Positions 1-61,140 of a DNA stretch of 64,000 nucleotides are shown here, in pieces. Position numbers and translations under genes: made by a program. Position 1 is the first letter of the stretch. Each line of letters starts with the position of its first letter. The stretch lies in NCBI GenBank assembly GCA_001662655.1, contig KV460206.1; one strand, given 5' to 3'. The notes below the pieces were generated by a model that did no database searches, was not told where the DNA came from, and was given only the letters and a program-made list of their open reading frames with translations. The DNA is from Pseudogymnoascus verrucosus. Taxonomy: Eukaryota.

Positions 1-818
1 CTGTGCTACTGTATTATTATGCACAAAGTCGCCTCCATTGAATATTGGGCGTGACATGGTTATTCACTGGGGACGTGAAGAGCAGCAACTCAAATGCAGG
101 TAGAGGCAACGAGTTGACGGTTGTAAGAGGAACAACAAGGATGATATTAAAAACCTGCGGTTAACAGAGTCGTAGCTTGTCCTTCCAAATCCAAAAGTAA
201 GCACTATTAGAAAATTCAGGTACTTAGCTAGCAACCAAGCTTCGGAGTTATGTCATGGCTATAAACCCTCGTTCTACTTAATCCGATATTAGAAAACAGG
301 TGACTAGATCATGTCAAGTGCAGAGGTTGAAGGCTAATGACCCAGACCAAATATCTCGGAGCTTTGTGATAAGGTGTGTCAATTGCATCCTCAAGGGCAT
401 GTGAGAATAAGCTAGCTGTAGGTATCGTAATCTGTAATCGAAGAGCTATGTCCGCCGCCTCTTACCCTACGGAATGGCTAGTATCCATTCGTGGAGATTG
501 TTTCTGTCCCAATTCCGGACCTTCAAACATCGGTGGACATAGATTGTGGGTTGACGAATAGCCGGCTTTCCGTGATGCCAAACTCCGGGCTTTGGTAGCT
601 CCGCGTATTCACTCTGTTTTACGCCTTAGATTCCACCTTAATCAACTACAAAGTATGCACAAACTCCACTTAAGCTTATTAATTATTCTTCCAGCTTTGC
701 TTATATCTGGCGACAGCTTTCTGTCCGGTTTACGAAGGCTTTCATTAAAACTGAGATATTACCGAACTTTGCATATCAACCTCAGAATCAACCAGACACC
801 CACAAGATATCTTGAACC

Positions 819-1206
819 ATGACTTCCACGACAGAATCAACGATATACAAACTTATTTTCTCTGTACCGGTCTCGCATTTTGCCGCTGTCAAAGCTGCTG
901 TCCACACTTCTGGTGCCGGCAATTTCCCAGGCTACACCGGCGTGAGCTTTCAGACTCAAGGCATGAGTGTTTTCTTGCCGAGTGGTGCGACAGAGCCAAA
1001 CGAAATGGCTGAAACGAAGGTAGAGGTCTTTTGTTCCGGAAGAGTTCAAGCGGTTGCAGCCGTGGGGGCAATGAAGAAGTAAGTGATATTTTGCTCAACG
1101 ACTGGAGTTTGGGGGGATGGTATGGAAAATGGTGACTAACGTTCTATGAAGGTCACATCCGTACAAGGCCGTCTCTTATGCTGTCTTCAAGGCGGAGAAT
1201 ATCTAG
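819..1206 (+). CDS. Small YqfO/Nif3-insert (PII-like fold) family protein, 2 exons (819-1078, 1152-1206)
   Basis: YKLIFSVP..VKAAV..GAG..PGY..VSF...ETKVEV. GTAAGT donor at 1079, GACTAAC branch, AAG acceptor at 1151. Exon 2 reads KSHPYKAVSYAVFKAENI*, matching the HPYE-type C-terminal motif. Confidence 0.75.
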
Positions 1207-1523
1207 GGACTTAGAGAAGGAAGCAGCGATACTTTGAAACCATATTCGCCTGTGGCTATGGCTTATGAGGAGGATACACTCATCTAAATTATGGACGCAC
1301 TTTTCTATACTTGAGAAAGAGAAAATTTGGTTTCGACTTCAGGAAACCAACTGAACTTCCTTTTTCATTTAATGCATCATAACATACCTTTCTCACATTG
1401 TCAAGTTTACGAAGGTCATGCAGACGGGTTTAAATAAGATAGATGAGACCTAATCTTAAAGTTTATTTCGACAGCCTACATACACACTGTCTTATAGTTC
1501 TTAATACATTCATTGAGTAATAT

Positions 1524-2451
1524 TTATTTTAAAAAGTCCCCTCCGGTCTCTTTCAGGAGTAGATTATACTCCGGCCAGAATTGTGCGTACATGACCTCCG
1601 AATTACTTGTAGTCTTGCTTGTATATTTTGCAGCTTCGTCGGACACGTACCTCTTCTGTATTCCACTTGCCGCAGCAGCATCCGTGACAAGTTGTGTGTG
1701 GCAGGCACGTTCCAGTGCAATGAAAAAGGCAGCCGCCTCGGCAACAGTACCTCCAGCAGTCAGGACGCCATGATTCTGTAAGATAATGTTCTTCTTGGTT
1801 GGGCCTAGGGCATCTGCAAGTCTCTTGCCTTCATCTGCAGCAAGGACTGGACCAGCGAATCCTTCATATATGGCAAGACTGTCGTAAAACATACAGGAGT
1901 CTAGATTGCTGGAATTAACGACAGAATACAGATTGGTTGTAGATTATCACACACCTTGATTCAGCATTTCTAGTGGCTTTCCGAAAGTCGACCATGCCCT
2001 ACCATAGGGGCTATGACAGTGGCATGCTGCATTTATATCAGGTCGAGCCTTGTGAATCTCCGAATGAATGACAAAGCCGGCTGTGTTGACTTTGTGTGAT
2101 GTCTCAGACAAGCAGTTCCCGTCCTCATCGACATGTATAAGATCAGAAACGTTAATCGCACCGAAGTGAACTGCGTATGGATTGATCCAAAACGTTTCTG
2201 GATCGGTAGGATCTAGAAAAGTAAGTAATGTGAAACAGGGGGAATGAAGCTTGCCTGCAGGATCAAATACCTCGAAGGCTGATATGACCACTTGCACCAT
2301 CTGCAAACCCCATCTTTGCGAATATCCGAAACGCCGCCGCCATATGCTCTTTCTCACGCCTCAAGAGCTCTTCAACGCTTGATACTTTTGAAATGTCATT
2401 GAGTCGCACCATCGTGCCATCGACAGTGGTCTTCTGTGTTTCTGAAGGCAT
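1524..2451 (-). CDS. Class II aldolase/adducin-domain protein, 3 exons (2451-2271, 2212-1955, 1900-1524)
   Basis: AAAFRIFAKMGFADGASGHIS, FWINPY, IHSEIHKARPDINAACHCHS (Zn-binding HxH), ILQNHG. Both GT-AG introns restore the frame. Confidence 0.92.
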
Positions 2452-3401
2452 TGTCGCTTCAGTTTCTTTGTTGAGTTGAATGTTTCAGTGTTTTGTAAAC
2501 TGTTTATTAACTTCCCTGAATCTCCTGCGCTGCTATGTGTCTCTTTTATGCTACTGATATGCAAGGCCAACTTTGGCCTCAGAACCAAAATGTCAGATGC
2601 CGCATATCCGCAGCAACATGTGTCCGACTTTCCCTCGTTCTCCTGTGCAATCGGAGCTTCCTCCCCATTGCGGACATCGTGCTGGACTCACTTCACGACC
2701 ACCAGCAAGTAATAGTCCGTCTAAGAGCTCGGCCCAGCGCCCTGTTGGCCTTTGTTACCCAATCGTTAATTGGAACATCCAGCTTGCCGTCTGACCAAGA
2801 GCGAGTTCATAAGGATGAACCACGGGCGGCTCTTGATAGCCGTAACCCCGACATAAGCACGGTTGATCATACCTGTCCATAGCATCTGATATTATTTTTA
2901 AGCCCACAATTACACCTCGAAATTCGTTAGATGAGATGGGTGACTGCAACTCCGAGCCACCAGATTCGGACTTTTCATCTGCTATCTGTAACTCCGAGAT
3001 ACCATATCCGGATTTCTTACCTATAGGCGGGCGTCTACAACTCCGGGTCTATGTTTGAGACCCACAGTACCTTGTTGGAGTCGTCCCTAACCCGAAAGCT
3101 GAAACGTGATGCTAAATTGCCAACTGTCTAGTTTCGATTAAACTGGACTCAAGATAGGACAACAAAATGTTATTCGCCTGTGGCGTGCCGACGTAGGCTA
3201 ACCCCCAGTTTGCGATACATCTAACTAAAAAGGAGTGTAAACTTCCTTTGGCCCTTACTCTCCTGGATATTGTCAGCACACACTGTCAACGCATACAAGA
3301 TGGAGCCTATTCCCGTCTAGCGCTTTATACGTCACAACCATTCCAGAATCAGAAAATCCAAGCAACAACAGCACACTTAAAATCAATTTTTCGTCTTCAT
3401 T

Positions 3402-3781
3402 ATGCATTTCCCTAACTTTGTTGTTATGGTTTCTGTTTTCTTTGCTGCAATGGCGTTCGCAGCCCCAGGTACAGAAGGAGTGGTTACTGAAGCAATTGAG
3501 GAGAGAGTAAGTGTTAAATAGATGCATCGCTTCAGATTTGTTGTTACTGACGAGTGTTTGGCGGAAAAGCGTAAGTAGCACATTTACCTGGCTGTGAACC
3601 GCTAATTAGATGGAATGGTTACTGAGAGGACTGTTTGGTGGAATAGAGTAAGTGGCACCTTTACCTGGCTCTCAGGAAGACTGAAGTAAAATGATTTCGT
3701 TTTGAAAGGTTAGATATTAACAAGAGGACTTATCCTAGTATGGGCTTCGCATTCCAACACCGCCCATCACAGCAAATATGA
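3402..3781 (+). CDS. Putative small secreted pre-pro-peptide; exon structure after codon 35 uncertain
   Basis: ATG 3402 gives MHFPNFVVMVSVFFAAMAFA-APGTEGVVTEAIEER (signal peptide, AxA-AP cleavage, pro-region), immediately followed by a GTAAGT donor at 3507. TATA-like TTTATA at ~3324. Confidence 0.5.
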
Positions 3782-3872
3782 GAAGCAAATAGCCACATTA
3801 CAACTTACTCACGCCCCCCAGTCTCCACGTAGTCCGTCACAGATCCTCCCGTCGTTGCTTCGTCCCTATTCT

Positions 3873-4828
3873 TCACAGCGTAATCCCCGCTCCCGGTTCC
3901 CTCATCATAAGCAGAATATCGACCTTCCCCTCAGCTCCAAACTCTGTAAAATCAAGACTAATTGTATCTCCCGTCTCCACCCAGCCAAGTCGTCGATATA
4001 GCTTCTCGCCCGCCTCCGATGCCTCAATATACGTCTTCTTTCCCTCTCTATCGGCGAGCCTTAGCACAGGCGCCAGTAGCGCCGCGCCGAGGCCGAGACG
4101 TTGGTACGTGGGAAGGACAGCAAGAATATTCATCACTGAACTGCCCGTTAGTTGCTATCCCGTTTATCCGGTAAGTGCCAGGCGCGGTCCTTGTTAAGGA
4201 AACCGAAGTAAGGGAATGAGAACGCACAATACATATCATCCTTCTTCAACCACTTGTCCCGCATCTCGAACAGCTGCGTCTTAAACGCCTCCTGTGCCTT
4301 ACTATTAGTCCCCTGAATCGGTTCTGGCTTTGGCGCTTTCTTGGCTTCCTCCGCTGCGGCCTCCTCTTCAGGCGTCAAGACATGCGGGAACCACCAATGG
4401 GAAATAGCTGCGATTTTGCTGATCACGCGTCAGATATAGTTTCCTCCCTCTCGTATCACGTCATCTTTAGCGTAGCAGAGCGAACCGATTAATGAAATTA
4501 AAACTGCCGAAAGGGGGACAGCAGAACAAGGGAATGTGAAAAAAAAGAGAGTGAGCGGAATAAAAAAAACGCACCCAGTCCCCTCATCAACAACCTTAAA
4601 ATGTCTGCGCCCACTTATAACCCCCTGCTTCTTCCAGAACACGATATTCTCTTCTCTCAGCGCAGCGCGGTCACCTGTCCCGCTCATGGTATTGAAGAGC
4701 AGATTACCAGTGAAGGCACTGTCGAAGACATCACAGAATTCGGGGATGTCACTCTCCCCGGCTTCAGAGATTGTGAATGTATAAGTCCCGACGCTCAGGA
4801 TTTGTGGTGGAAGGTCGGATGTCGCCAT
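3873..4828 (-). CDS. GNAT family N-acetyltransferase, 3 exons (4828-4575, 4418-4228, 4135-3873)
   Basis: Motif A LAVLPTYQRLGLGAALL and YIEASEAGEKLYRRLGW. Two GTGCGT..CAG introns join the three ORF pieces in frame. Confidence 0.9.
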
Positions 4829-5504
4829 GGTAGGTGGGGTGTCGCGGGCAGAGGAGTAAAAGCTACAGTTCACAGAGGTCTGAAATGCTCAAATAAATCA
4901 CCCAGCTCAAAGCTTAAACAGCAATAAAATAGCAATAAAAGCAATTTAAAAGGCAGAACCCTAAATATATATATGCCCTCTAGATCCGCCATCCGGTCCA
5001 GCCGCCTGGTCGCTAAGAGGATCTTGCCACCCGCACTAAAGTATGACTCCCGGCCGACGCGCCAAGGCCTTCCCCACCTTCCTTTTTGGCATCACTTCGC
5101 CCGTTGTCCCGATACGTTCGCAGCGATAAGCTTCAAAACTTTACCTTCAACACCTGAAGTTCACTTTTCAACCTCGCCTTTCTTCTCCTTCTCTTCTGAA
5201 TACCCGATCCGCTTCAGTAGTGTCTGCCCTCGAACCCTTCGCGATCCCTAGTGCCTAATTGGGCATATTCTTCGCATGCATCAGTTTCTCTTCAAATCTC
5301 GGTTACCATGTTTGATAGGCTAGCGGCTTTGGCATTTCGGGCCACCGCTTCTCAGAGCACACGTAAAAGACCCTTAGAGTCCTATTCTTTCCCCTATATC
5401 ATATGCCCTATACAAAGAACTGCCGATGAGCAAGTGAAGCAAGCTACCTAGAAAGAACTGCAAGAGACATCGGCAATTGGTCTGTGCCTAATCTCCCATC
5501 TCTC

Positions 5505-5990
5505 TGTAATAATTTTATAAATGTAGCATACAGCGCAGGTGCGTTAGCAATAAAACAAGCACACTATTAGAAGTATATTATAATAAAGTATAGTATAGTA
5601 TTTAAGTATAGTATTTAATAAAGTTTTTATATAAAGTGCTATTATGTTATAGTAATAAGTCTATTTATATACCCTTTATAGTAAGAAACCTACTATGTCT
5701 ATTAGTAGTACTATTTATAATGTTAAGTCTTATATACTATTAGAATACCTCCCCTATGTCTATGTGCTTAACTTTAGTAGTACTAGAGAGAGAACGTTAT
5801 TTAATTTAACTTAGTGTATTCTATTATTTAGATGTTGTCTACTTAAAGTAGCCTTATAACTATACTAGGGTATTACATGCTTCTTTAGAGAGGGTTTTCC
5901 ATCCTATAGTACTAGGTAAGTCCTTAAAAGTGAATGAAGAGTGTTATAGATAGTAGATTGCAAAATCTAGACATAGTAGGAGCGTGCCTT
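5505..5990. other. AT-rich, TpA-enriched tract resembling a RIP-mutated repeat or transposon relic
   Basis: Abrupt compositional shift (e.g. taataaagtatagtatagtatttaagtatagtatttaataaag), dense TA dinucleotides, no ORF. Confidence 0.6.
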
Positions 5991-6006
5991 TTATACCATT
6001 TTCAAG

Positions 6007-6068
6007 CTCGCCCTCGCTTACCCTTGCTCACCCTCGCTCACCCTCACCTTACTCACCTTCGCTAACCT
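6007..6068. repeat. Degenerate ~10-bp tandem repeat (CGCTCACCCT-like, ~6 units)
   Basis: ctcgccctcgcttacccttgctcaccctcgctcaccctcaccttactcaccttcgctaacct. Confidence 0.7.
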
Positions 6069-6273
6069 AGGTACTAGATTATCTATGGCCATCTAAAGTC
6101 GCGGTGCATCACGTTTATCGCGTCTTAATACAAGACCCACTCCGTGCGTGTCGACGTAGCCGCCATTAGGTAGTTAAGGGGGACAACCAGATTATCGTGA
6201 GGCATCAAAAACTTGAGGGCAGCAACGCTCACCTGCTAGTCCAAATGGCACCGTCCTAAGTATTAATCCACTT

Positions 6274-6339
6274 CAAGCTTGAGATCGGTGGATTAGTAGT
6301 TGGGTGGGTGACCACCAGCGAATACCTACTGTTGTAGGT
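6274..6339 (+). rRNA. 5S: 5S rRNA gene fragment (3' half only; truncated or interrupted copy)
   Basis: CAAGC..GGTGGATTAGTAGTTGGGTGGGTGACCACCAGCGAATAC..CTGTTGTAGGT matches the ascomycete 5S 3' half and is followed by a Pol III T-run. The expected 5' half (ACxTACGACCAT..CCCGTCCGCTC) is not present upstream. Confidence 0.85.
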
Positions 6340-6359
6340 TTTTGCCTTTTTGTCGTCCT

Positions 6360-6640
6360 CCCCCTCATAGCTAGTTATTCATCCCTATATTCTGTCGTAG
6401 GAGAGAGACGTTTAAAGGGGGTATGGTTTGTATTTTGCAGTTTGTATTTTGTAAAGGAACACCTAAGTCAGTGAATATCTAGCTGCACTCCTCTCATAGC
6501 TATGTTTGATTATCCCCCTACTCATAGCAATTGTCCGACTACCCATCTCTCATAGCAACAGTCCTCCTACCCTCCTCTCTTAGCACCTATTTAGCCATTA
6601 TCCTCTCACACAAGTTGTCCACTTACCCCCATCTCACGGC
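6360..6640. repeat. Degenerate repeats with a CTCTCATAGC core (~7 copies, mostly ~30 bp apart)
   Basis: ccctcatagcta, cctctcatagcta, ctactcatagcaa, atctctcatagcaa, cctctcttagca, cctctcacacaa, catctcacggca. Confidence 0.55.
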
Positions 6641-6682
6641 ATATACAACCAAAACGGACCGGGACTACCTCTCAGGGGGGGG

Positions 6683-8097
6683 TTAGCACTTCTCACCCAC
6701 CAAATATCCGATAGTGTCGTGGCTCACGACGTCCTTGGAGATGCCCTCCTTGACACATCCCAGCTTCGCCCCCGACCAGATATCCTCAACCTGATACGAG
6801 GTTCCGTCAAGCTGCGGCACCTCACTCCACTTGATCTCCCTCATCGCCGTCGCGGCCAGAGAATTAAATGCAAGTACCAACACCCCATTGCTGCCCACGC
6901 CACTCCAGTACTCCGCCGGGTTCGTAGCGTTGAACGTCCAGTCCACATTGACGCCCCATTTATATGGCATCGCAGGTTTTCCGTAGATGTCATCCTGATT
7001 GAAGGCAAGAAGATATTTATTCTTCAAGACCGCCACATTCGCCGCACTCAACTTGTCCAGCGCAGTCCCGATAACAAGCGGACTCTTCATCGCCGCCCAC
7101 AGTGCAAAGTGACTGCGATTCTCCTCATCCGTCAAGACGCCGTTGCCGACCTCGAGCATGTCAGGGTCGCTGTGGCTCCAGTGATCGTTGTAGTTCATCA
7201 GGAACGAGTTCATATTGAGCAGCTGCGTGATGCGCGACCATTGGGGCGTGATGTCGGCGCTCATGCGCCATGTTGGAGCAATTGATGAACCCCAGTTTTG
7301 CACACTTGCCCGACCCCACTCACACAGACTGTAGAGAATTGTTCGGTTCTGCGCTTTCAAAGCGTCGCCCATGATGCGGTAGCGCTGGGTGGTGTTGGAA
7401 GTGCTCCAGTCATAGCCCTCGGGGGCAGTACGGCTGGTAACGGGGCAGGTCCCGTTGGTTAGGAGGGGAGAACTTCCATCAGGGATACAGCTGGCATATG
7501 TGTCTGTCCAGTTAGATGGATAGAAACAGTTGTCATATTTGAGGTAGTCGATGCCCCATTCGGCAAAAGTGGCTGCATCCACTTCCTCGTAGCCGATGGA
7601 GGCAGGGTAGCCCTCGCATGTATTGGTGCCCGCCGAGGAGTAGATTCCTATTTTGAGACCGAGGGCATGGATCTTGTCTGCGATGCCACTGATACCATCA
7701 GGAAACTTGGTGAGGTCGGGACGAATCCGGTGAGTAGTTTCGTCGCGGCCGTCTTTGATCGACCAGCAATCGTCGACTATGAGGTGTTAGAACTTTCCTG
7801 AAGCAAGAATATGAGAATTACTGTTAATATATTCATAACCGGCGTCTTTTAGACCGAGATTAACAACCTCGTTCGCTGCAGTCATGACCTTCGTCGCATC
7901 GATATTACACCCAAAGGCGTTCCAGGAGTTCCATCCTAACGTTGGGAGTTTGCCCTGAACACTATTAGCACTCGCCCTCACGGTAAAAGTTACAAGCATT
8001 GTTGCATATTGTCCGAACTTATGGCTCGTTCAGCTTGCACAGTTGCTAGAGCAGTAGGCACGTCTGCCAAGAAACCCAGTGTTGCGGGTAAAAGCAT
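6683..8097 (-). CDS. GH27 alpha-galactosidase (exons 8097-8023, 7954-7822, 7776-6683); first donor is non-canonical
   Basis: [24 protein letters not shown] (nucleophile), [29 protein letters not shown]. Signal-like [18 protein letters not shown] from ATG 8097. Confidence 0.88.
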
Positions 8098-15305: not shown

Positions 15306-16201
15306 CTGTATGGGTTGTTTGTTAGCTATTGTGAGGTGTAATTGCAGCTGTCTCTACTATACAAGAACAGCAGGGGAATTTGCATACCGTGAATATGTGA
15401 GGCTCAGAAACTGAGTGGTGGCGAGGTGACGGGTAGGTTAGATGCCAGGAATGATTTTCAAGGAGGACAGAAACAGAAATAGGAAAAAAACTGTAGATAA
15501 ATATAGCAAAAAACCCCTGGGAAGAACGTGATCTGTTCTGAATGCTTATAGGGCCTCTCCTGCCTTGATTTATCTCAAAATTACTATTCCCCTGGTGGAA
15601 GGGACTTCTAGACCGCAACCAAGTATGGCAAATGACGTATTGCTAGAAAAGCACTCGTAGGACACCAGGCACAGGATTAGATAAGGCAATTAATGCCCCT
15701 TATTTGTAGTCATAGAAGGTGCGTGAATAACTGCATGATATATTCCCATCCAAATGTCTACTATTCACAAATTCCGATCTTAAAAATGAGATATCTCTGT
15801 TCAGAGGCTCATAGGCATTTTTTGGAAATGCAGGTTCTGGACCCTTGGACTGGAATAACGCACGGACCTATCGAGAACCCTGTTTGATAACCAGAACGTG
15901 GTGACAGTCCAATGGGGTGCACGGACAATTTTGGTTGCTGTGCCATCCTGTCGGCATGTCAACAAATGTCCCCCATCCCCGGATGCAATCTTCGTTGACA
16001 TGGAGGCCACATTTATTGAATCTCTGATCACAATTTTTCCTCCCTTTGACACGAATACACGATTATATATGATTGCAATATCCTGAAATCTTTCTCGCGA
16101 ACTCCATATTGTATTTGCCATCTGCAAGTGGGGTTGCTACACCCTCAGAGACTCACATTCCAACGGTTGTTCCACCAGCAATTTTGCTGTAACCATCAGC
16201 A

Positions 16202-18865
16202 ATGGCAAAGCCTACACCTTCCGACGACGACTTTGGAATCCATGTCGACGGCTCCTGTCTCACCGATTCGACAGACCTGCACGCATCTCCAAAGAGGAAT
16301 GTCTCCGACCAAACAGTTATCCACCACGACGAAGTCCACGAGAAGACCGAACAGGACGAGCATACAGAAGCACTCATCCATGCCGCTGCACGAGCAATTA
16401 TTACGAGCATCGAGCAAGATGCATATGACAAACATGCTGGTTCTGTCATAAGCGACCTGAGCTACAGTGGCGTCGATGGATCGGATAACTGCTATACTGA
16501 AGGATCGAATTTAACATATGGAGAGGAGGCGGAGATGAGCTACGGAGAGGGAACCGAGATGAGCTATGAGGGCGACCAGGAAAATTCATACAATGAAGAC
16601 ATTCATGGCGACCCCTACGATGGCTCTGGTAGCTCACACCATGAAGACGACGTCTTCAGCCACGGCAGGAGAAGCTCCGGCGGGAGTCTCAATTCAAGTG
16701 ACGAACAAAACACAGATGAAGAGAGGCGGTACCAGCTTACAAAGTCCGACAACAAAGCCGCACAAGCGGAGAACAGATTCGTGCAGCATGATGAACAGGA
16801 GAAGGAGTTGGACAATGAAATGAACAACATACCTGAAACAATATCTCGAATTCCCAGCATGGCCTCAAACGCCTACTCTATGCTACCGGAGCCGCTATCT
16901 TTCTCCTCCGTAACTTCGCCTCACACGCCCAGCAAAGTCCTCAACCGCCCTCCTTTCAGGACCCCAAGCTCAGTACGGGCAATGCAAATGTCCAGCCCGA
17001 CACCCTCAGTCTTTTCCGGCTCACCGACGTCACGCAAGAGGGTGAATAGCTCGCGCATATCCACGCCAAACAGACTCCAGTCTTCGCTCACGAAGCACAG
17101 GACTCCCACCAAATTTAAAGCAAAGGAAGAGCATCCCTTAGTTCTCTTACACGTCACTGTCCTCCCATTACACTGGCAGCATGCCCAGATAATGGACACA
17201 GCGCCACCAGACGTGCTATCGAAAGACCTTCTAGCTGTGCGAGAGAGCTGGAAGCTGCTCCAAGACAAACTTGGCGATACCGTGTTTGAACGGGGCGTCC
17301 TACTTCCCCACCCTCAAGATTCATATGAGACTCTCGAAGAGAGACTCTGCGCTGCACTGGAGCTTCCCATGCGTCCCCGTGCCAAGATCCTCGCTTGCGG
17401 ACACTACGTCGGGCCCTCCACATCCTTCTCTGACAGCGAGCTGTCCTCGTCTGACTCTTCTGATTCCGAGGATCTGGACTCGGAAGTGTCCACCAAGTCT
17501 CTGTGGTGCGACATCTGCTGCCGCGATGTCCGTTTCGGGAAGTTCGATTCAATGCCAGGGAGGCAGAAGAAGAGCTTCAAGGTCAAGCTGTTTGCGTCGA
17601 ATGGGCTTATGGGAGCTGGTGCCTGGGCAGCGTGTTGGAGGGAAATGGAGAGGGTGGATGTGGAGATTACGCCGTGGGTTGAGGCCGCTGCCGCGAAGGA
17701 GATCAATGAGTTGACAGAAACGGTCATGGCGCATCAAGCCTCTGACGAGGGACATTTTGAAGAGGTTCACCACAGTATTATGGAGGAGCCGGTGCCTTCT
17801 GTTAAGATTGAAGCTCCAGAGGAGGAAAGCCATGCCGACTTTGCCGACATTGCGAGGAGTGAAAGGGACGCGATGCGATTGAGAGAAATATATGGTGAAC
17901 AACCATCTCAAGCACCAGAGCAAGGTCCCCACCCTCAACAACATGATCCTCACCCGCAGCACGATCCCCATCCTCAGCACGAAAGTCCTTCAAGCAGACG
18001 CCCAACTGCTCGACATCAGCAGGACGAATCCTTCGTCACTCTCCTTGTGGCTGCCGCCAAAGTGCTCGTGCAAGACAAGAAGAACGTCATGATTTTCCTT
18101 CTCAGTCTAGTCGTCCTGCTGCTTGCCGTTAGGCCTGGAGGAGCACCACCGGTAAACAGCTTTCAGATGCAGGAGCTGGCAATGCAGAGGTTTGAGCAGG
18201 AGGCGGCGGCTCGCATGGCTGCTAATGTTGTGCAGCCGGTCGTGCAGATGGTTGCAAAGGTGGAACAACAGGAAATACACGCCCTAGAGCAGGCTCCGGT
18301 GCAAGTCGTGGCTCGGGCTGAAGTTGTGGAGGAGAAGAGGCAGGTTCCTGTTCAGGTTCCCGTTCAGGTCCCCGTTCAGGTCCCTGTGCAGGAGGCGGCA
18401 TACATTGAGGTTGAAGAAGCGGAGCCTGAGGTCCCTGCCCCAGCAGCTGTTCCAGAACAACAAGCTGTCGACGCGGTGCCGGAAATCGAGGAAGAAGCGG
18501 TCGTTGAAGTGGCAGAACCGGTACAGGAGGAGCCTTTGGCCTCTTCAATTGCTGAAGAAACTGAAGAATCCGGCCCTACCCCTCAGGTAGAGGCAACTGA
18601 GGAAGCTTCTACTTCTACAGAAGCTTTGGAGGACGCAGTGGACTCTGAGCCTGCTATCGAAGCTGAGGCTGTCGAGGCAGTTGAAGAAGCCGAGCCTTCC
18701 TCAGCTGCCTCAGTGGAAGCTGTGGAGTCCATCGAGCCTGTCGTCGAGGTCGAAGCAGTTGAGACTGAGCCAGCTGAGGTCGAACCAGCCGAGTCGGAAC
18801 CTGTACTATCAGAAACTGAGACTGTCCAGCCCGTTGCCGAAGCTGTCGAGGAGCCTCAAGAATGA
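16202..18865 (+). CDS. Uncharacterised 887-aa protein: low-complexity N-terminus, central globular domain, one TM helix, acidic E/A/P/V-rich tail
   Basis: Single long ORF. Central HPLVLLHVTVLP..ERGVLLPHP..CGHY..WCDIC..GAWAACWREMERVD. TM segment VMIFLLSLVVLLLAV. Confidence 0.8.
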   Translation: MAKPTPSDDDFGIHVDGSCLTDSTDLHASPKRNVSDQTVIHHDEVHEKTEQDEHTEALIHAAARAIITSIEQDAYDKHAGSVISDLSYSGVDGSDNCYTEGSNLTYGEEAEMSYGEGTEMSYEGDQENSYNEDIHGDPYDGSGSSHHEDDVFSHGRRSSGGSLNSSDEQNTDEERRYQLTKSDNKAAQAENRFVQHDEQEKELDNEMNNIPETISRIPSMASNAYSMLPEPLSFSSVTSPHTPSKVLNRPPFRTPSSVRAMQMSSPTPSVFSGSPTSRKRVNSSRISTPNRLQSSLTKHRTPTKFKAKEEHPLVLLHVTVLPLHWQHAQIMDTAPPDVLSKDLLAVRESWKLLQDKLGDTVFERGVLLPHPQDSYETLEERLCAALELPMRPRAKILACGHYVGPSTSFSDSELSSSDSSDSEDLDSEVSTKSLWCDICCRDVRFGKFDSMPGRQKKSFKVKLFASNGLMGAGAWAACWREMERVDVEITPWVEAAAAKEINELTETVMAHQASDEGHFEEVHHSIMEEPVPSVKIEAPEEESHADFADIARSERDAMRLREIYGEQPSQAPEQGPHPQQHDPHPQHDPHPQHESPSSRRPTARHQQDESFVTLLVAAAKVLVQDKKNVMIFLLSLVVLLLAVRPGGAPPVNSFQMQELAMQRFEQEAAARMAANVVQPVVQMVAKVEQQEIHALEQAPVQVVARAEVVEEKRQVPVQVPVQVPVQVPVQEAAYIEVEEAEPEVPAPAAVPEQQAVDAVPEIEEEAVVEVAEPVQEEPLASSIAEETEESGPTPQVEATEEASTSTEALEDAVDSEPAIEAEAVEAVEEAEPSSAASVEAVESIEPVVEVEAVETEPAEVEPAESEPVLSETETVQPVAEAVEEPQE

Positions 18866-19217
18866 GTGCTAGGAGACGAAATGGGGATTAAAGTTTATTA
18901 TTTGTGTTGAAACTGGGTATCATTTGATAGTGAGCGAGCTAGCGAGCGGGCGATTTGAAGGATTGGATTTGGCTTTTATGTTTACGATGTTAAGAAGGCA
19001 GCGAGTTTGGGTACTAGGTTGTTGTCTCGTTCCCGCAAAGGTCGGGGGTGAAAGTCAGTATAAGGAGGGAGGAGTGGATGGGATGAAGATATATGTGAAG
19101 GGGATTGGACTTGAGATGCCTGTTAGGGCTTTAGTAGAATAGTCATATTCGAATCTATACTCTAACATGAGACCATACTGTGCCACTTATTTGATTGACA
19201 TGTCTTTAATTTTCAGC

Positions 19218-19850
19218 TCTATATATGGCAGGAACGTTTATCAAGCAACGGCTCAGTCGCAGCTTCCTTAGGAATTTGAAGCCTTAAATATGGAATGAAC
19301 GATTATCAAGCAGATCCAGACGCAGCTTCCCAGCACTCTCAAGTCTTATATATGGCAAGAACGATTACCAAGCAAAGACTCAGCCGTAGCTTCCTTGAAA
19401 CTTTCAGACTTTATATGATGTTATATATAGCAAGAACGACTACCAAGCAAACTCAGTCGCGGCTTCCTTGAGACTTTTAGGCCTTATATAGGGAAAGAAC
19501 GATTACCAAATAGACTCAATCGCAGCTTCCTCAGGACTTTAAAGCTTCATATATGGAAGGAACGATTACCAAGCAAACCCAGTCGCAGCTTCCCTAAAAA
19601 TTATATCTTTATATATGGAAGGAACGATTGTCAAGCAGACTCAATCGCAGCTTCCTCAGAACTTCCGAGTCTTATATACGGAAGGAATGATTATCAAGCA
19701 AACTCAGTCGCAGCTTCCCCAGGTCTTATATTTTAATATACGGAAGGAACCATTACCAAGCAAAACCTCAATCGCAGCTTCCTTAGAACGTTGAAGCCTA
19801 CTATAGGGAAGGAACGACTATTAAGCAAGACCACAGTCGCACCTTGCTTG
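19218..19850. repeat. Minisatellite, 10 units of ~62 bp
   Basis: Core ATATATGGAAGGAACGATTACCAAGCAAACTCAGTCGCAGCTTCC recurs at ~19220, 19287, 19348, 19423, 19486, 19549, 19611, 19674, 19735 and 19801, with more variable linkers. Confidence 0.92.
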
Positions 19851-29085: not shown

Positions 29086-30260
29086 TGTCACTGTGTGTGT
29101 GTGTGGACGAGGAGGTCGTCCGCGTGTGTGTGTGTGTAGGTGTAGTGTGGTGATGGCAGTGGTGGTTGCCAATTGGTGGTTGTGGAAGCTGGTGGTGGTG
29201 AAGCTGTGAGGTGCGGGTGAGGAGAGATGTTCGTTTGGGTGTGGTAAGAGGGCCCACTTTAGCGCGCGGTTGGGAGGGCGCTAGTGACACGATTTGTCCC
29301 GCGTGATGGTTGACTGGTTTCTTGGTGCTGGTGTCGGGTTGAATATATTCGGGTTGGTTTTACTGGATCGAAGGGGGTGAGGGGATTATTATAATATCTG
29401 GAGGTGGCAGTGGGAAGAGGGTGAGGAGGGGGGGGTTTGTGGTGAGGTGTTTGTTTGTTCGGAAGGAAAAGGGCATGACATCGCCAAGACACGAAATTCC
29501 CCGAGATCCTGATGGTGTAATGCGGAGGGAAACAAAACATGCATGAAGTCACGTCGCACTGCAGTTATTGACTGTACAGCTTCTGAATGGTGGATATGGA
29601 TAACTTGAATATATTATTAGGGAAAATGCTTGTGGTGACCCACTAGTTGCATCAATGCATATAGAGAGCTCTCAGACGACGAAACAATGGTTGAAACATT
29701 ACGAGTACTTGCACGGCCTTAGAGGAGTTATAGAGGCTGTGCTGTAGTATCCTATCAAAGTCCTAGATTCCAGTGTAAACGTATAATTGCCAACATATCT
29801 CTCACTGCCACGCCGAGGTCCTACGGAACACTTAAATACCATGCGAGTCACATCATCAAGACCAAAATAATACGTGCTAATGAGAATCTTTCCCATTGCT
29901 TGCCTTTACTAGACTAAATCCCCCCTCCAATTCACCCATCTAACCCTTCCTTCAAAACACTTTTTATAGTTCCTCCCTCCTCTCACATATACACGAGACC
30001 TCCCTCTCCGTATACTCATACAGTACATACAAAACAGCACAAGCACATCAGGGCCGACCACACGCCTTCAGCGCGCGCGTCCCGTAACACCATTACCCTC
30101 TCTCTCCCATTCCTTTCTCCTCCTCGCCCCTCACTCAGGAGGGCACATATGCAGGATCCCCCTCCCTCTCAAAATACAAAAAAACGCCGTGATACCCACG
30201 TCTTCTGCCACTCCAAACAAAGTATGAAAAAACAAGTGGTGATGTGAAAATGAAATCGAT

Positions 30261-30388
30261 AGGCTGAGAAGAGCCATGTTTCTTGGTGAGAGAGGCTGAG
30301 AAGAGCCATGTCCCTTGACGAGAGAGGCTGAGAAGAGCCATGTCCCTTGATGAGATAGGCTGAGAAAAGCCATGTCTCTTGATGACGG
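30261..30388. repeat. 32-bp tandem repeat x4 in the PMC1 3' flank
   Basis: AGGCTGAGAAGAGCCATGTCCCTTGAYGAGAG-like units at 30261, 30293, 30325 and 30357. Confidence 0.9.
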
Positions 30389-54699: not shown

Positions 54700-55139
54700 A
54701 TAAGCGCATAGATTATTCTAGAAATGAGGGATGGGCTGTCTACTGTTTCTGTAGCTAGGTTACTATGGTTTGTTCTCTACAGTCTCGGGGGTTATGTTAT
54801 TGTTGCAATATTAGGTCCGGGGGTATCTTATATGATTAGAGATATCAAAACATTATACTTGATTTAGCAGAACAGATGTGTAGGAACTTGATGTAATAGA
54901 CTATATAATTTGGTTTGGCCTTAAATAGAGATAAAGGCTAAGACTATATATAGGTAAGTTAGCTATTCTTACTTTAGCTAACCTAACTATAGATTTATGA
55001 CAGGGGTTATGACAGGGGTAGTCTTATAATTAGATTCGCGTACCTTCTTCAAGATTATCTAGACCGACTCTCCCTCCCAAGATATTAGATAGACTATCTC
55101 CTACTGCACCTTAACAATATATTATCACAGGGCCCTTAG

Positions 55140-57050
55140 ATGGCTGCACTCTACCGCGCTCTCGGCCTTGGTCGACGGGAGATCCGCCTATTAAAGCTAC
55201 TCAAATCGGATTCCTTCGACTCCCCCATCCGCGGTAGGCTCGTGCACACCACGCTCGATGACCACGAGCCTTACGAGACCATATCGTACGTCTGGGGCGT
55301 CCCTAAATTTACACAGACCATCGAGCTGGAATCGCAGCCGTTTGGGGTCACGCCGCACCTGGAGAACGGGCTTCGGCATTTGCGCCTCGCCTCTAAGGAT
55401 AGGACGATCTGGGTCGACGCCGTGTGTATCAACCAGAGCGACGATGTGGAGCGCGGCGAGCAGGTCATGTTGATGAAGCAGATCTACGAGTCTTGTACGG
55501 GAAATCTGGTTTGGCTCCATCCTATGGTTCCCACGCCCTCCAATGTATCTGAGGGCGAGAATCAAGGTGAGGAGGTAGATGAAGAGAAGAGACAGCAGCA
55601 GATGGCTAAAACGCTCGCGACCATGGAGGAGGGCTTGGATTTGTTTAGTAGTATTTACACGCGTGACATCAAGTCTCTCGAGCCGATGCGTCACAAGAGG
55701 GGAGAGGTTAGTTTTTGGGAAACCACGAGCGACAAGCCAGGCGACGACGTGTGGCTCCTAGAGTACGAGCAAATGGACTCCCTGCAGACGCTTTTTACCT
55801 ACTCCTTGCTATGGTCGCGCATATGGGTGATGCAGGAACTCGCATGCGCGCCGCGGATCACCCTCGTCATCGGGAAGCGGACGCTGGATTGGGATATGCT
55901 CGACTCGTTTCTCGGAGACGCGGAGTACTCCGATGCGTTTCATATGGAATGGGGACACGGCACTGTGGGACCCATGGCTGGTCAGACATTCAGCAAGGTC
56001 AAGACTATTCAGAACCAGCGCACCATGACGCAGGCGGGGCAACGGTCAAGCTTAATGGATGTCCTGGCGCGCTTCAAGGGTTCCAGGTCCACAGACCCAC
56101 GGGACAAGATCTATGGCCTCCTCGGCCTCACCTCGCAAAGCCGCGAGATGAAGGTCGATTACCGCAAGTCGGTCGCGGAGGTTTTCACTGAAGCAACCAC
56201 CAACGAGATCAATGGGAGCGAGAACCTAGACATCATCACCCAGAACCCATTTCAAGGGAACGACTCTACCGAGCGACTGGCCGGCCTCCCGTCCTGGGTC
56301 CCTGATTTTTCGTGCAACATGTACGACGACTACTCCAATCAGTACTCTAGCATCCTTTTTGCGCAGCGGGGGATCTACAGTGCTGGGAGTGCAGAATGCA
56401 AAGTCCCCTGCGACGACGTCCTACCCGGTCGTGTGTTACGCCTCCACGGAACGGTCATCGGTCGCGTGGGACCCATATTATTTAATGACTGGGAACAATC
56501 GTACGACGTGAAGCCTGGATGGCAACTCCAGAATCTCTACGCGTATAAGAAGCTCTATCTCAGCCCCGACGTCTTAGACTCGTCGGCGACGTACGTAAAT
56601 GGGGAGCCCGAATTACAGGCGTTCTGGAGGACTTTGGCAGGTGACTGCGTCGCGTACCCTATAGAGCGACTAGACCAGACACAAATCGCCGAGGACGGCA
56701 AGGCGATTCGAGAGCTTATGCGGCAGCCGTTGACGGAGGAGTCGCGGTGGTATACGTTCTATAAAGATCTGGCCTCGGGGCGGATGATGGATAAGATGTT
56801 TATGCGGTGGATGTTCACGAAGGCGGATAATGGGCTCTTTTTGATGGTGAAGGAGGGAGCGAAGGAAGGGGATGTTATTGTGGTTGTGGATGGTGGAAAA
56901 GTTCCGCTATTGCTACGTAAAGTGGAGGATGGTGAGGGAGGCGGGTATACTGTTGTCAACGCTGCTTATGTGCATGGTTTCATGGATGGGGAGGCAAGGA
57001 CCTGGGTGGAGGAGGGGAAACTGACTGAGCAGGATTTCCTAGTCGTGTGA
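55140..57050 (+). CDS. HET-domain (HET-6-like) heterokaryon incompatibility protein
   Basis: EIRLL, YETISYVWG, IWVDAVCINQ, QVMLMKQIY, WSRIWVMQEL, STDPRDKIYGLLG, LPSWVPDF, AYVHGFMDGE. Confidence 0.92.
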   Translation: MAALYRALGLGRREIRLLKLLKSDSFDSPIRGRLVHTTLDDHEPYETISYVWGVPKFTQTIELESQPFGVTPHLENGLRHLRLASKDRTIWVDAVCINQSDDVERGEQVMLMKQIYESCTGNLVWLHPMVPTPSNVSEGENQGEEVDEEKRQQQMAKTLATMEEGLDLFSSIYTRDIKSLEPMRHKRGEVSFWETTSDKPGDDVWLLEYEQMDSLQTLFTYSLLWSRIWVMQELACAPRITLVIGKRTLDWDMLDSFLGDAEYSDAFHMEWGHGTVGPMAGQTFSKVKTIQNQRTMTQAGQRSSLMDVLARFKGSRSTDPRDKIYGLLGLTSQSREMKVDYRKSVAEVFTEATTNEINGSENLDIITQNPFQGNDSTERLAGLPSWVPDFSCNMYDDYSNQYSSILFAQRGIYSAGSAECKVPCDDVLPGRVLRLHGTVIGRVGPILFNDWEQSYDVKPGWQLQNLYAYKKLYLSPDVLDSSATYVNGEPELQAFWRTLAGDCVAYPIERLDQTQIAEDGKAIRELMRQPLTEESRWYTFYKDLASGRMMDKMFMRWMFTKADNGLFLMVKEGAKEGDVIVVVDGGKVPLLLRKVEDGEGGGYTVVNAAYVHGFMDGEARTWVEEGKLTEQDFLVV

Positions 57051-57572
57051 AATGATTGCAATGGTGAATAAAGATATTATAAGTCGAACCTCTAGATTTT
57101 TTATGAGAAACAAACACATTTTTAGCAGCTGTAAGAGCCGTCGTCGTCATATGTCGCAGTACTCATATACACACTCATAATAGCCGTAATGCTAACTAAA
57201 ATTGTCATAACCCACATGAGAACGATCAATTGTACGTCTTCCAGTCTCAGCTATGATAAAACGTGCTCATGCCAATTTGCGGAAGAATTTCTTGTAGGGT
57301 GTATGATACCGTAGACCTAAGAGGACCCGGCCCAGATTGACACGCACTTTAGCTGTCGATCGGTGGTCTAAACAGCTCAGTCCTAGTATGTAGGCTCGGT
57401 AAGTATGGCTATCTCGAGATTTTCAAATCGATTGATAACCATTCTTAAGCCATCACCGTTTGTCTAAAACTTGCTATGGTATCATCTGCTAAAGGAGCTG
57501 GGAGCGAGACTTTAGGTGGATCTACTAGGAACGAACCTCGGTAACACAATTGATATGGCTGACACCGAGACT

Positions 57573-58853
57573 TCAAGTGACGTTTAATTCCTGCTGGCTA
57601 TCGTTGTTGTTGATCTGGACCCGATACGTTCTCTCAACTCTAATATCCTCCGCGAGCGACATGTCTTCCCAGTTCTTGTTCCCGTCGTAATTCTCCGTGA
57701 GGTTAGCCTTGGAAACGGTGGTTTCACTTGCGACGTTTCGCCTGAAGCCGTCGAGCTGGAATGCATCCTTTGATGGGACCCCAGAGTCCCCAGTGTGTCG
57801 CAGATACGAGTTTCGCGAGTCCTTTGAGGTATATCCTAGCTGGCGGCGAAGGAGGCTAATCAAAGGCCTCAGAGTTGGCGTGGAGCCGCAAACGATGACG
57901 AGGAAGAACTCTGCCGTAACCCATGCGAATATATCGTAAGTAGCCCAGGTGAAATCTGTACGGTTGCCAAGCTCGGAGAGGTACGAGGTTTTAATGCCAG
58001 AGCATATTGAAGTGCTATAATATAGATTAGCGGCCGTCGCCGTGCAGGATTGCAATTGAGTTTGTGCATACAGGATGTTTAGGGCAAACACAATTGTTAA
58101 CGTCATCTTCTCTTGGAAGCCCATCTGAAGAGTCCAAAAAATAGTTGCAGGAATCAAGGATAAGCTAGCGTCGACGAAAGTGTTGTATGCTATAATCATA
58201 TTAGCTTTGGGGACCTCTGCCTTTGCATGATAAAACTCGACGCACCTCCAGTGAAGATGCCAAAGCTAGCCATGACGGTAGGCTTTATGCAAGTACCCTC
58301 AACCCTAGAATCCCATAAAGCAGCCGCTGGGCGACATTGCGCAAAGGTAAGAATCGAGCATGAAACGCTGACACAAAGGACCAAAACAATGCAGAACGTC
58401 CACAGATAGATCTTCTGCCATGCCCGTTGTGTGTCCCTTATGATTGTGAGAATCAAGGCGGAAACAGAAACTTTGCCTGCCCCGATGCCGATGATACCGA
58501 AGACTTGCGATGTCCAGTTCAGCAACTGGACCTGCGCAACGATGTCTGGCCCGAGGGCTCCCACATCGGCCATATGTCTCTCCCCGCCTTTCAGACAAAG
58601 AAGTGTAAGAGAGATGGTCCACCCGAAGAAACAAATCTGCCTAGGTTAGCAATTGAGACTCCATGGTGAGGGGAGGACGGACCATCGAGATGAACATGAA
58701 GAGATCATCATAGCCGATGATAGATTTTTGTGCGCGGAAGATAAACCTCATAACAACCGTAATACTGGCCAAAATTGTCATAACCCACATGAGGACCATC
58801 AATTGTACGCCACGATCTGGCACAGATGCGGTCGAAGCTGCCATTTCAGCCAT
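57573..58853 (-). CDS. PTH11-like (rhodopsin-domain) integral membrane protein without CFEM, 4 exons
   Basis: VVMRF..IGYDD, GKVSVSAL, FAQCRP..LWD....C, DASLSLIP, EFFLVIVCGSTPTLRPL. Three GT-AG introns in frame. Confidence 0.88.
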
Positions 58854-60902: not shown

Positions 60903-60999
60903 AGGGGGTGTGTAGTGCTGCATTGGGAGGTTAGATTTGGGATACCAAACAGGCATTTCAAGTGGGTGATTTGCGTGCTTTCCGTTTTCCCGACGTATC

Positions 61000-61140
61000 G
61001 TAACAACCGTCATGCTAGCCAAAATTGTCATAACCCACATGAGAACTATCTATCAATTGTACGCCACGATCTGGCACAGATCCGCTGAAGCCACCACAGA
61101 AGAAGATGAGAATAGAACTGACCAGTTACCCATGTCACCG
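61000..61140 (-). pseudogene. Decayed copy of the 5' end of the PTH11-like gene
   Basis: Near-identical to 58749-58830 (GCCAAAATTGTCATAACCCACATGAG..ATCAATTGTACGCCACGATCTGGCACAGAT) with a 4-bp TATC duplication that shifts the frame. Confidence 0.75.

What the first reader, a model, noticed from the sequence alone, without database searches (positions are those of the whole stretch)
1..6343. Half 5S rRNA gene as a candidate boundary of a 5S-targeting giant mobile element (Starship-like)
Seen: a well-preserved 5S 3' half with its T terminator (6274-6343) starts abruptly at ..TTAATCCACTT|CAAGC, and I found no 5' half anywhere in the window. Directly upstream are a short 10-bp repeat array and an AT-rich RIP-like tract, then small accessory-type genes (GNAT, secreted peptide, class II aldolase, YqfO-like). 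Established: some fungal Starship elements, mobilised by DUF3435 tyrosine recombinases, insert into dispersed 5S rDNA and split it. Inference: 1-6273 may be the end of such an element and its cargo. No captain gene is visible in this window.
Basis: partly seen in the sequence, partly recalled or inferred. Interest (0 to 1): 0.75.

Follow-up and report, generated by a model that had tools for sequence, protein, structure and literature searches.

The report
Probable Starship end at split 5S gene
A ribosomal 5S RNA gene in this fungal genome is cut off exactly where a known family of giant fungal transposons (Starships) inserts, so the DNA to its left is probably the far end of such an element, though its other end lies outside the window and cannot be checked.

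Summary
Window 6268/6275-6340 (+) is the 3' part of a 5S rRNA gene with its T-run (Rfam RF00001, model 48-120, 31.5 bits, E 3.6e-5). No 5' half is found anywhere in the 64 kb.

The host is a Leotiomycete near Pseudogymnoascus.

- The break falls on the AAGC motif that is the direct repeat of the 5S-targeting Osiris Starships of Aspergillus (Enterprise family; DR ttaagccac, aagcc or aagccacacg).
- The orientation fits. The captain would lie on the 5S 5' side, upstream of base 1.
- The 17 nt just before AAGC (6258-6274) match the curated Osiris terminal inverted repeat in fixed register at 10/17. This rises to 14/17 if RIP-type transitions are allowed. The background rates are 0.0024 and 0.00027.
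- A strongly RIP-like relic lies at 5450-5980.

Not shown: the captain, the 5' half, an empty site and the element's size. The upstream genes look native to the genus.

Verdict: probably (about 0.6) the captain-distal junction of an old Osiris-like Starship. That would be a new member of a known kind, of moderate interest.

The parts
6268..6340 (+). 3' part of a 5S rRNA gene (Rfam model positions 48-120). The AAGC at 6275-6278 corresponds to the Osiris-type Starship direct-repeat core.
   Evidence: 31.5 bits, E 3.6e-5, cut at the 5' side; direct repeats.
6340..6352 (+). T-runs (TTTT at 6340-6343, TTTTT at 6348-6352): the Pol III terminator of the former 5S gene.
   Evidence: Read directly. The terminator role is inferred from general knowledge of Pol III genes.
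6258..6274 (+). Candidate terminal inverted repeat (3'-end reading) of the putative element: AAGTATTAATCCACTTC, directly followed by AAGC.
   Evidence: 10/17 identical to the reverse complement of the curated Osiris h3 TIR in fixed register (313 of 127,968 window 17-mers do as well). 14/17 if C>T and G>A are allowed (34 of 127,968). TIR source. The A. nidulans 3' end 'aggtattgaccgcgttc|aagcca' gives 11/17 by eye.
5981..6257 (.). Unique subterminal stretch of the putative element, including a 10-bp tandem array at 6006-6045.
   Evidence: period 10, 4.0 copies. No other copy in the window. Mild RIP-like indices, 1.44 and 0.86.
5450..5980 (.). AT-rich RIP-like relic, probably the remains of a once-repeated sequence.
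   Evidence: GC 0.294, TpA/ApT 1.63, (CpA+TpG)/(ApC+GpT) 0.57. The core 5540-5960 gives 0.266, 1.80 and 0.40. Composition.
3873..4828 (-). GNAT acetyltransferase gene (three exons by eye); putative cargo.
   Evidence: Acetyltransf_10, E 8e-8, on 3873-4154. (85% to V500_01569 of Pseudogymnoascus sp. VKM F-4518). ORFs. Exon limits are inferred.
3402..3521 (+). 39-aa ORF with a signal-peptide-like start; unverified.
   Evidence: only. No family match in the region.
1524..2451 (-). Class II aldolase/adducin-type gene (three exons by eye); putative cargo, rare within the genus.
   Evidence: PF00596, E 3.4e-22 and 2.4e-11; 1 of 112 hits carries a Pseudogymnoascus name (V499_01096, 85%, a one-member cluster); the next hit is Fusarium at 70%.
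819..1206 (+). Small protein like the insert domain of NIF3/YqfO. The intron at 1079-1151 is inferred from a GTAAGT donor, a CTAAC branch site and an AG acceptor.
   Evidence: 2gx8, E 5.2e-5; Atlas 0.91, automatic name only; sequence read.
6683..8029 (-). GH27 alpha-galactosidase gene: the chromosomal flank to the right of the junction. It is not part of the element.
   Evidence: Melibiase_2, E 1e-46. (82% to V502_08532 of Pseudogymnoascus sp. VKM F-4520).

Best explanation
Window 1-6274 is the captain-distal (3') end of a Starship-type giant transposon of the Osiris / Enterprise-family kind. It sits inside a dispersed 5S rRNA gene of a Pseudogymnoascus-like Leotiomycete.

Mechanism (inferred from the known family):
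- A DUF3435 tyrosine recombinase is encoded at the element's other end, upstream of window base 1.
- It recombines the element's terminal sites with a core around AAGC in the middle of the 5S gene.
- This leaves [5S 5' half + repeat][captain ... cargo ... terminal repeat][AAGC + 5S 3' part]. Only the last junction is inside the window.
- The split 5S copy is dead; other dispersed copies supply 5S rRNA.

The insertion is probably old and the element may no longer be mobile or whole. A RIP relic lies 300 bp inside the end, and 4 of the 7 mismatches of the terminal repeat are C>T or G>A.

Shown: the truncated 5S, its break position, the terminal similarity and the RIP signature. Inferred: everything about the captain, the left junction, the size and the cargo status of the upstream genes.
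For: 1. Break site. The 5S match begins at model position 48-55. AAGC at 6275-6278 aligns to the conserved UAAGc of the model.
   - Curated Osiris elements are listed in Table 1 of PMC12153272 (passage read) as Enterprise family with target '5S rDNA'. Their DRs are ttaagccac, aagcc, aagccacacg and aagccaca(c/t)g (15 of 17 Table S3 rows; 2 rows have '?').
   - Table S7 of PMC11162782 shows the same repeat in A. aculeatus, A. flavus, A. oryzae, A. jensenii and A. niger elements, up to 'ggccgtacttaagccacac'.
2. Orientation. In aspfum3_s01169 (+ strand), the upstream repeat at 639099-639106 is followed by a DUF3435 captain at 639407-642061, and the downstream repeat is the last 8 bp. The repeat reads in 5S sense, so the 5S 3' part belongs at the captain-distal end, as in the window. 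The paper states that DRs are strand-specific in nearly all cases.
3. Terminus. 6258-6274 matches the Osiris TIR read at a 3' end at 10/17 in fixed register (background 0.0024). With RIP-type transitions allowed it is 14/17 (background 0.00027).
4. RIP relic at 5450-5980.
5. Plausibility in this genus. 9 of 9 Pseudogymnoascus rows seen (of 21) in Table S8 have 11-33 Starship recombinase genes and 0 annotated elements. P. destructans has a fam06 recombinase (psedes1_9006). fam06 navis002 is the family of aspfum3_s01169 and aspnid3_s01917.
6. The aldolase is rare in the genus: 1 of 112 hits.
Against: - No captain, no 5S 5' half and no second repeat are in view, and no empty site could be sought.
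- Only 6.3 kb is visible, with ordinary gene density and intact genes.
- The three upstream genes have their best named relatives in Pseudogymnoascus at 85%, like the flank's 82%. Nothing marks them as foreign.
- The flank gene GH27 is itself not universal in the genus.
- The TIR similarity is modest. It was noticed after four other motif comparisons had failed (p 0.12-0.64). Its last 3-6 bases may simply be 5S sequence. Without the last four positions the match is 7/13 (background 0.022).
- At least 5 different 5S target sites are known. By my own rough estimate, a random break would fall within 3 nt of one of them about 30% of the time.
Confidence: 0.6

Rival explanations
1. An ordinary, old 5'-truncated 5S pseudogene with no Starship involved. 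The 5' half was lost through a deletion, a rearrangement or the insertion of a small conventional transposon. The remains of that transposon would be the RIP-like tract at 5450-5980. The genes at 1-5400 are resident chromosomal genes.
For: - A RIP relic sits 300 bp from the break.
- The upstream genes look native to the genus and are intact.
- No Starship gene is in the window.
- The subterminal motifs of Table S7 are not matched.
Against: - The break coincides with a documented Starship repeat core, in the right orientation.
- The terminal 17 nt resemble the Osiris TIR.
- No 5S 5' half is found on the far side of the RIP tract, where a small insertion would have left it.
Confidence: 0.3
2. 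The 5S fragment belongs to a mobile element or a duplicated segment rather than to the target. In this reading the element carries a partial 5S, as attachment sites of tRNA-targeting bacterial elements carry part of the tRNA. Alternatively the boundary marks a segmental rearrangement.
For: Some Aspergillus elements carry up to 19 bp of 5S-identical sequence as their repeat, so element-borne 5S sequence exists.
Against: - About 66-73 nt of 5S plus its terminator is far longer than any recorded repeat (6-16 bp in the NAR paper's text; the longest Table S7 row I saw is 19 bp).
- To the right lie housekeeping-type genes: Duo1, SurE, TTL, a P-type ATPase and Sir2.
- No second copy of the region exists in the window.
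Confidence: 0.05
3. An assembly artefact: a chimeric join placed inside a 5S repeat.
For: Dispersed 5S copies are repeats at which short-read assemblies can misjoin. No data here speak to coverage.
Against: The sequence left of the break is unique and has no 5S similarity. A misjoin between two 5S copies would give a whole gene, not a half.
Confidence: 0.03

Closest known systems
Osiris Starships of Aspergillus fumigatus and their relatives (Enterprise family; fam06 navis002 in the starfish survey), e.g. aspfum3_s01169 on Af293 chromosome 3 and aspnid3_s01917 of A. nidulans
   Same: - Insertion point in the 5S gene at the AAGC(C) core.
- The repeat reads in 5S sense, with the 5S 3' part at the captain-distal end.
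- The terminal 17 nt are 10/17 (A. fumigatus TIR) or 11/17 (A. nidulans 3' end, compared by eye) identical in the same register.
   Different: - The host is a Leotiomycete, not a Eurotiomycete.
- The repeat would read AAGCT.. rather than AAGCC.., which follows the host's own 5S sequence.
- The terminal repeat is much diverged.
- The captain, size and left end are unseen.
- The subterminal motif reported by starfish about 40 bp inside the end is not recognisable.
Voyager (Macrophomina phaseolina) and Starship-2_Aten / Starship-1_Anig
   Same: Giant DUF3435-mobilised elements that insert inside dispersed 5S genes and split them (passages of PMC9156397; Table S1 of PMC11162782).
   Different: Voyager inserts 20 bp from the 5S start with the repeat GCCCTGTATTCT. 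Anig_Starship1 uses the extreme 3' end. The break here is at about position 50-55, a different target site.
tRNA-gene-targeting integrative elements and prophages of bacteria
   Same: A tyrosine recombinase uses a conserved small-RNA gene as a stable landing site. A partial RNA gene marks one junction. This rests on general knowledge; the analogy is also drawn in PMC9156397.
   Different: Those elements usually restore the tRNA gene from an element-borne copy. Here no restored 5S is seen at this junction, and the published view is that the 5S copy is disrupted.
Dispersed 5S rRNA pseudogenes of filamentous ascomycetes
   Same: A partial 5S copy at a dispersed locus.
   Different: The break position, orientation and adjoining terminal sequence match a specific transposon family. 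I could not read the classic survey (Rooney and Ward 2005 is not held), so I cannot say how common such 5'-truncated copies are.

Membership tests
Starship (giant cargo-mobilising transposon of Pezizomycotina) | A DUF3435 tyrosine-recombinase 'captain' gene at the element's 5' end | not testable with these tools
   The predicted position is upstream of window base 1. Inside the window, 0 of 70 chosen ORFs and 0 of 15 small ORFs match DUF3435 or any recombinase family. That is what the geometry predicts, so it neither supports nor refutes membership.
Starship (giant cargo-mobilising transposon of Pezizomycotina) | Short direct repeats at both ends that reflect the target site | tested here: inconclusive
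   One junction is seen. 5S sequence resumes at AAGC (6275), the recorded repeat core. The second copy, at the left end, is outside the window.
Starship (giant cargo-mobilising transposon of Pezizomycotina) | Presence/absence polymorphism: an empty, intact target site in a related genome | not testable with these tools
Starship (giant cargo-mobilising transposon of Pezizomycotina) | Large size (tens to hundreds of kb) with many cargo genes | not testable with these tools
   Only 6.3 kb lies inside the window. It holds 3-4 small genes.
Osiris-type / Enterprise-family 5S-targeting Starships (fam06 navis002) | Insertion in 5S rDNA at the (TT)AAGCC core, with the repeat in 5S sense relative to the captain | tested here: met
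   The break is at model position about 48-55, with AAGC at 6275-6278. The 5S target is stated in Table 1 of PMC12153272.
Osiris-type / Enterprise-family 5S-targeting Starships (fam06 navis002) | Terminal inverted repeat GAACGCGGTCAATACCC, read as its reverse complement at the 3' end directly before the repeat | tested here: inconclusive
   10/17 identical in fixed register (background 0.0024). 14/17 with C>T and G>A allowed (0.00027). 7/13 without the last four positions (0.022). The comparison was post hoc, after four failed motif comparisons.
Functional 5S rRNA gene (Rfam RF00001) | Full-length match reaching the gathering score, with helix I formed by both ends | tested here: not met
   26.1 bits untruncated and 31.5 bits as a 5'-cut match, against a gathering score of 38. 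No 5' half is present.

The most novel reading that the evidence does not exclude
An Osiris-like, 5S-targeting Starship lineage is shared between Eurotiomycetes (Aspergillus) and a Pseudogymnoascus-like Leotiomycete. It has the same insertion point in the 5S gene and a recognisably related terminal repeat. That would mean either that this target specificity and its terminal sites are very old, or that the lineage crossed between fungal classes. It would also give the first delimitable Starship boundary in a genus where the starfish survey found 11-33 recombinase genes per genome but no element.
Probability: 0.4. Interest if true: 0.5.

Novelty: new member of a known kind. Interest (0 to 1): 0.38.

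Why it matters
Split 5S genes are cheap, sequence-only markers of Starship boundaries. If this one is real it has three uses:
- It extends the Osiris-type insertion site beyond Aspergillus, to a cold-adapted Leotiomycete lineage in which Starship recombinases are numerous but no element has been delimited.
- It shows that the terminal repeat next to the AAGC core can still be recognised across fungal classes.
- It gives a concrete anchor (GH27 flank, 5S 3' part, terminal 17-mer) for finding the captain and cargo on the full contig and for genotyping related strains.

It would not change the current understanding of how Starships work.

Tried and rejected
1. A hidden 5S 5' half. The whole window at E<=10, 5000-7500 and 6120-6279 with end-truncation allowed gave nothing. 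By eye, 6240-6257 seemed to hold short 5S-5'-half-like motifs. That impression rested on recall and the model does not support it, so I dropped it.
2. Subterminal 'TIR|down' motifs of Table S7 (AAAGCAGCG type, about 40 bp inside the end). The local alignment to 6195-6250 was no better than to random window segments (p 0.29, 0.34, 0.12, 0.64). Rejected.
3. A second or inverted copy of the terminal 17-mer or of the Osiris TIR in the window. There was none at <=3 mismatches.
4. Recurrence of 5980-6343 within the window. None was found by the repeat finder or by self-BLAST.
5. Synteny by locus tags. The best named hits of the three genes come from three different strains (V502_08532, V499_01096, V500_01569), so adjacency could not be judged. 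The listing of cluster members, which might have listed same-strain members, is switched off.
6. A foreign origin for the upstream genes. This is not supported: their identities to the genus are the same as for the flank.
7. A more similar TIR variant in other genera in Table S7. Only the A. nidulans row was found.
8. Literature.
   - 'Starship' with 'Pseudogymnoascus' gave 1 paper, a DNA-repair review seen as a listing only.
   - Rooney and Ward 2005 is not held.
   - Tables S11-S13 of PMC11162782 (insertion-site metadata and manual curation) are beyond the stored part of the file.
   - bioRxiv supplements are closed.
   - These unseen files may hold 5S coordinates of the repeats that would sharpen or weaken point 1 of the evidence.


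Full report
WHAT IS THERE

Read directly, the + strand runs ..GTATTAATCCACTT CAAGCTTGAGATCGGTGGATTAGTAGTTGGGTGGGTGACCACCAGCGAATACCTACTGTTGTAGGT, followed by TTTT (6340-6343) and a second T-run (6348-6352). Rfam's 5S model does not reach its gathering score on the whole window. At a relaxed threshold it finds this locus and nothing else of 5S: 1 of 8 matches at E<=10 over both strands of the window, and 26.1 bits in untruncated mode. When the stretch searched starts at 6268, so that a 5'-cut alignment is allowed, the match is model positions 48-120 of 120, at 31.5 bits and E 3.6e-5. A scan of 6120-6279 alone, which would allow a 3'-cut 5' half abutting the break, returns nothing at E<=10. The break can be placed only to about 6268-6275, because ACTT at 6270-6273 may still be 5S sequence.

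SURROUNDINGS

To the right lie ordinary chromosomal genes:
- a GH27 alpha-galactosidase (6683-8029, minus strand)
- a Zn2Cys6 regulator
- an alpha-amylase
- Duo1, SurE, a tubulin-tyrosine-ligase-like gene, a P-type ATPase, Sir2 and others

To the left, going away from the break:
- a unique 290-bp stretch with a 10-bp array (6006-6045)
- an AT-rich block whose dinucleotide indices are strongly RIP-like: 5540-5960 has GC 0.266, TpA/ApT 1.80 and (CpA+TpG)/(ApC+GpT) 0.40, against 0.70-0.86 and 1.18-1.27 elsewhere
- a GNAT gene
- a 39-aa ORF with a signal-like start (unverified)
- a class II aldolase gene
- a small gene resembling the insert domain of NIF3/YqfO (PDB 2gx8, E 5.2e-5; no Pfam match)

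None of the 70 ORFs I chose from the 194 of >=90 aa, and none of 15 further small ORFs in 1-5451, matches DUF3435 or another recombinase family.

HOST

The best named relatives of three genes are all in one genus:
- GH27: Pseudogymnoascus sp. VKM F-4520, 82%
- aldolase: sp. VKM F-103, 85%
- GNAT: sp. VKM F-4518, 85%

The window therefore comes from a Leotiomycete close to, but not identical with, the sequenced Pseudogymnoascus strains. The aldolase is rare in the genus. Only 1 of 112 hits carries that genus name, in a one-member cluster, and the next hit is a Fusarium protein at 70%. The GNAT and GH27 clusters have 8 and 10 members.

COMPARISON WITH KNOWN 5S-TARGETING STARSHIPS

I read passages of four texts and searched the supplementary tables of two of them. 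What they state:
- 23% of curated Starship insertion sites lie in 5S rDNA.
- There are at least five separate target sites, all internal.
- Most Aspergillus Enterprise-family elements target 5S.
- Voyager inserts 20 bp from the 5S start, which is not the site seen here.

The Osiris naves of A. fumigatus are listed as Enterprise family with target '5S rDNA' (Table 1). Their curated direct repeats are ttaagccac, aagcc, aagccacacg and aagccaca(c/t)g. The curated terminal inverted repeat is gaacgcggtcaataccc or close variants (Table S3: 17 rows seen, 2 with '?' for the repeat).

The starfish survey lists the same repeat for elements of A. aculeatus, A. flavus, A. oryzae, A. jensenii, A. niger and others, up to 19 bp (ggccgtacttaagccacac). 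In the Rfam alignment, the conserved UAAGc of the 5S model is matched by CAAGC at 6274-6278. The window's 5S therefore resumes exactly at the Osiris repeat core.

ORIENTATION

Element aspfum3_s01169 (Af293 chromosome 3, + strand) is laid out as follows:
- upstream repeat at 639099-639106
- DUF3435 captain at 639407-642061
- cargo that includes a non-reducing PKS
- downstream repeat as the last 8 bp, at 688498-688505

The repeat reads in 5S sense in element orientation. The captain end therefore abuts the 5S 5' half and the far end abuts the 5S 3' part. In the window the 5S 3' part lies to the right on the + strand. The window would then hold the captain-distal end, with the captain expected upstream of base 1. 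The absence of a captain in the window is thus expected and uninformative.

TERMINUS

Read at a 3' end, the Osiris TIR is GGGTATTGACCGCGTTC followed by AAGCC. The A. nidulans element aspnid3_s01917 shows exactly this arrangement (aggtattgaccgcgttc|aagcca). It belongs to the same family and navis as the Af293 element (fam06 navis002). The window reads AAGTATTAATCCACTTC followed by AAGCT.

With no freedom of register the results are:
- 10 of 17 positions agree. 313 of 127,968 17-mers of the window (0.0024) do as well.
- 4 of the 7 mismatches are G>A or C>T. Allowing those gives 14/17 (34 of 127,968; 0.00027).
- Leaving out the last four positions, which might be 5S sequence, gives 7/13 (0.022) and 11/13 (0.00078).

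This is suggestive rather than conclusive. I saw it only after comparing four other published subterminal motifs, which showed nothing (p 0.12-0.64). No second or inverted copy of the terminal 17-mer or of the Osiris TIR exists in the window. No part of 5980-6343 recurs in the window.

PLAUSIBILITY IN THIS GENUS

In the starfish tables, the 9 Pseudogymnoascus rows I saw (of 21) have 11-33 Starship recombinase genes and 0 delimited elements. P. destructans has one recombinase gene assigned to fam06 (psedes1_9006). A search for 'Starship' together with 'Pseudogymnoascus' found one paper, a DNA-repair review (listing only). Within the held library, therefore, no Starship element of this genus is described.

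WEIGHING

For a Starship junction:
- the site
- the orientation
- the terminal similarity
- a RIP relic of a once-repeated sequence just inside the end
- a rare aldolase gene
- the right recombinase family present in the genus

Against:
- Every defining feature beyond one junction is out of reach.
- The upstream genes look native and intact.
- With five or more known 5S sites, a random break would fall within 3 nt of one of them roughly 30% of the time (my estimate).
- The TIR match is modest and post hoc.

I put the Starship-junction reading at about 0.6. This includes the case of an old, RIP-damaged or partly deleted element. An unrelated truncation (small transposon, deletion or rearrangement) is at about 0.3, and the remainder goes to element-borne 5S or a misassembly.

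MECHANISM (inferred from the family, not shown here)

The captain recombinase pairs the element's ends and exchanges strands at a core around AAGC. That core lies in the region of the 5S internal control element called box A; the position is recalled from general knowledge of 5S genes and was not tested. The 5S copy is split and silenced, while other dispersed copies supply 5S rRNA. The RIP-type changes in the terminal repeat suggest that this copy may no longer be a good substrate.

NOVELTY

5S-splitting Starships are established. This would be a new member of that kind in a new host lineage, so interest is moderate. The most novel admissible reading is that the Osiris-type site and terminal repeat are shared across fungal classes, whether by antiquity or by transfer.

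WHAT STAYED UNCHECKED
- The contig beyond the window, and any fungal genome DNA.
- The metagenome and viral collections (closed).
- Cluster membership (switched off).
- Tables S11-S13 of PMC11162782 (beyond the stored part of the file).
- bioRxiv supplements (closed).
- Rooney and Ward 2005 (not held).

Noticed in passing
window 61194-61315 (-): A tRNA gene with a 43-nt insertion at the anticodon loop (an intron) and a long variable arm. Rfam scores it at 44.8 bits; ARAGORN in bacterial mode missed it.
   Followed up: no
window 57167-57236, 58741-58838, 60998-61091; also 59188-59271 and 61416-61496: Short dispersed repeats (80-87% identity) spaced about 2.25 kb apart, around the fungal-rhodopsin-domain gene and the tRNA gene. 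They suggest an old local duplication or a small repeat family.
   Followed up: partly
window 19208-19850: A tandem array with a 63/125-127-nt period, 72-78% identity between copies, in an intergenic region upstream of the Duo1 gene.
   Followed up: no
window 6366-6640, array 6521-6585: Directly downstream of the 5S terminator is a stretch of repeated CTCATAGC-type motifs, including a 28-nt tandem repeat (2.3 copies, 81% matches). It may be native 5S-flanking sequence or a microsatellite-like spacer.
   Followed up: no
window 16193-18865 (+): An 890-aa open frame with no Pfam match at E<=0.001.
   Followed up: no
window 55140-57050 (+): A HET (heterokaryon incompatibility) domain gene (PF06985, E 7e-26), next to AT-rich spots at 54751-55050.
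   Followed up: no
window 6303-6308, inside the 5S fragment: The retained 5S part contains GTAGTT, which is listed as the direct repeat of another Aspergillus Starship (Afla_Starship2, Table S1 of PMC11162782). A second potential landing motif therefore survives in the orphan half. That table does not mark the element as 5S-targeting.
   Followed up: no
window 4430-4888 (-), GNAT first exon: Two unnamed proteins from JGI-sourced contigs (P0233 at 89%, P0234 at 94%) match this exon, apparently reading on into the intron. Very close relatives of this fungus therefore occur in environmental data. I did not fetch them or pursue them.
   Followed up: no
window 30258-30385: A 32-nt tandem repeat of 4 copies, 88-91% identity, just beyond the 3' end of the P-type ATPase gene.
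   Followed up: no
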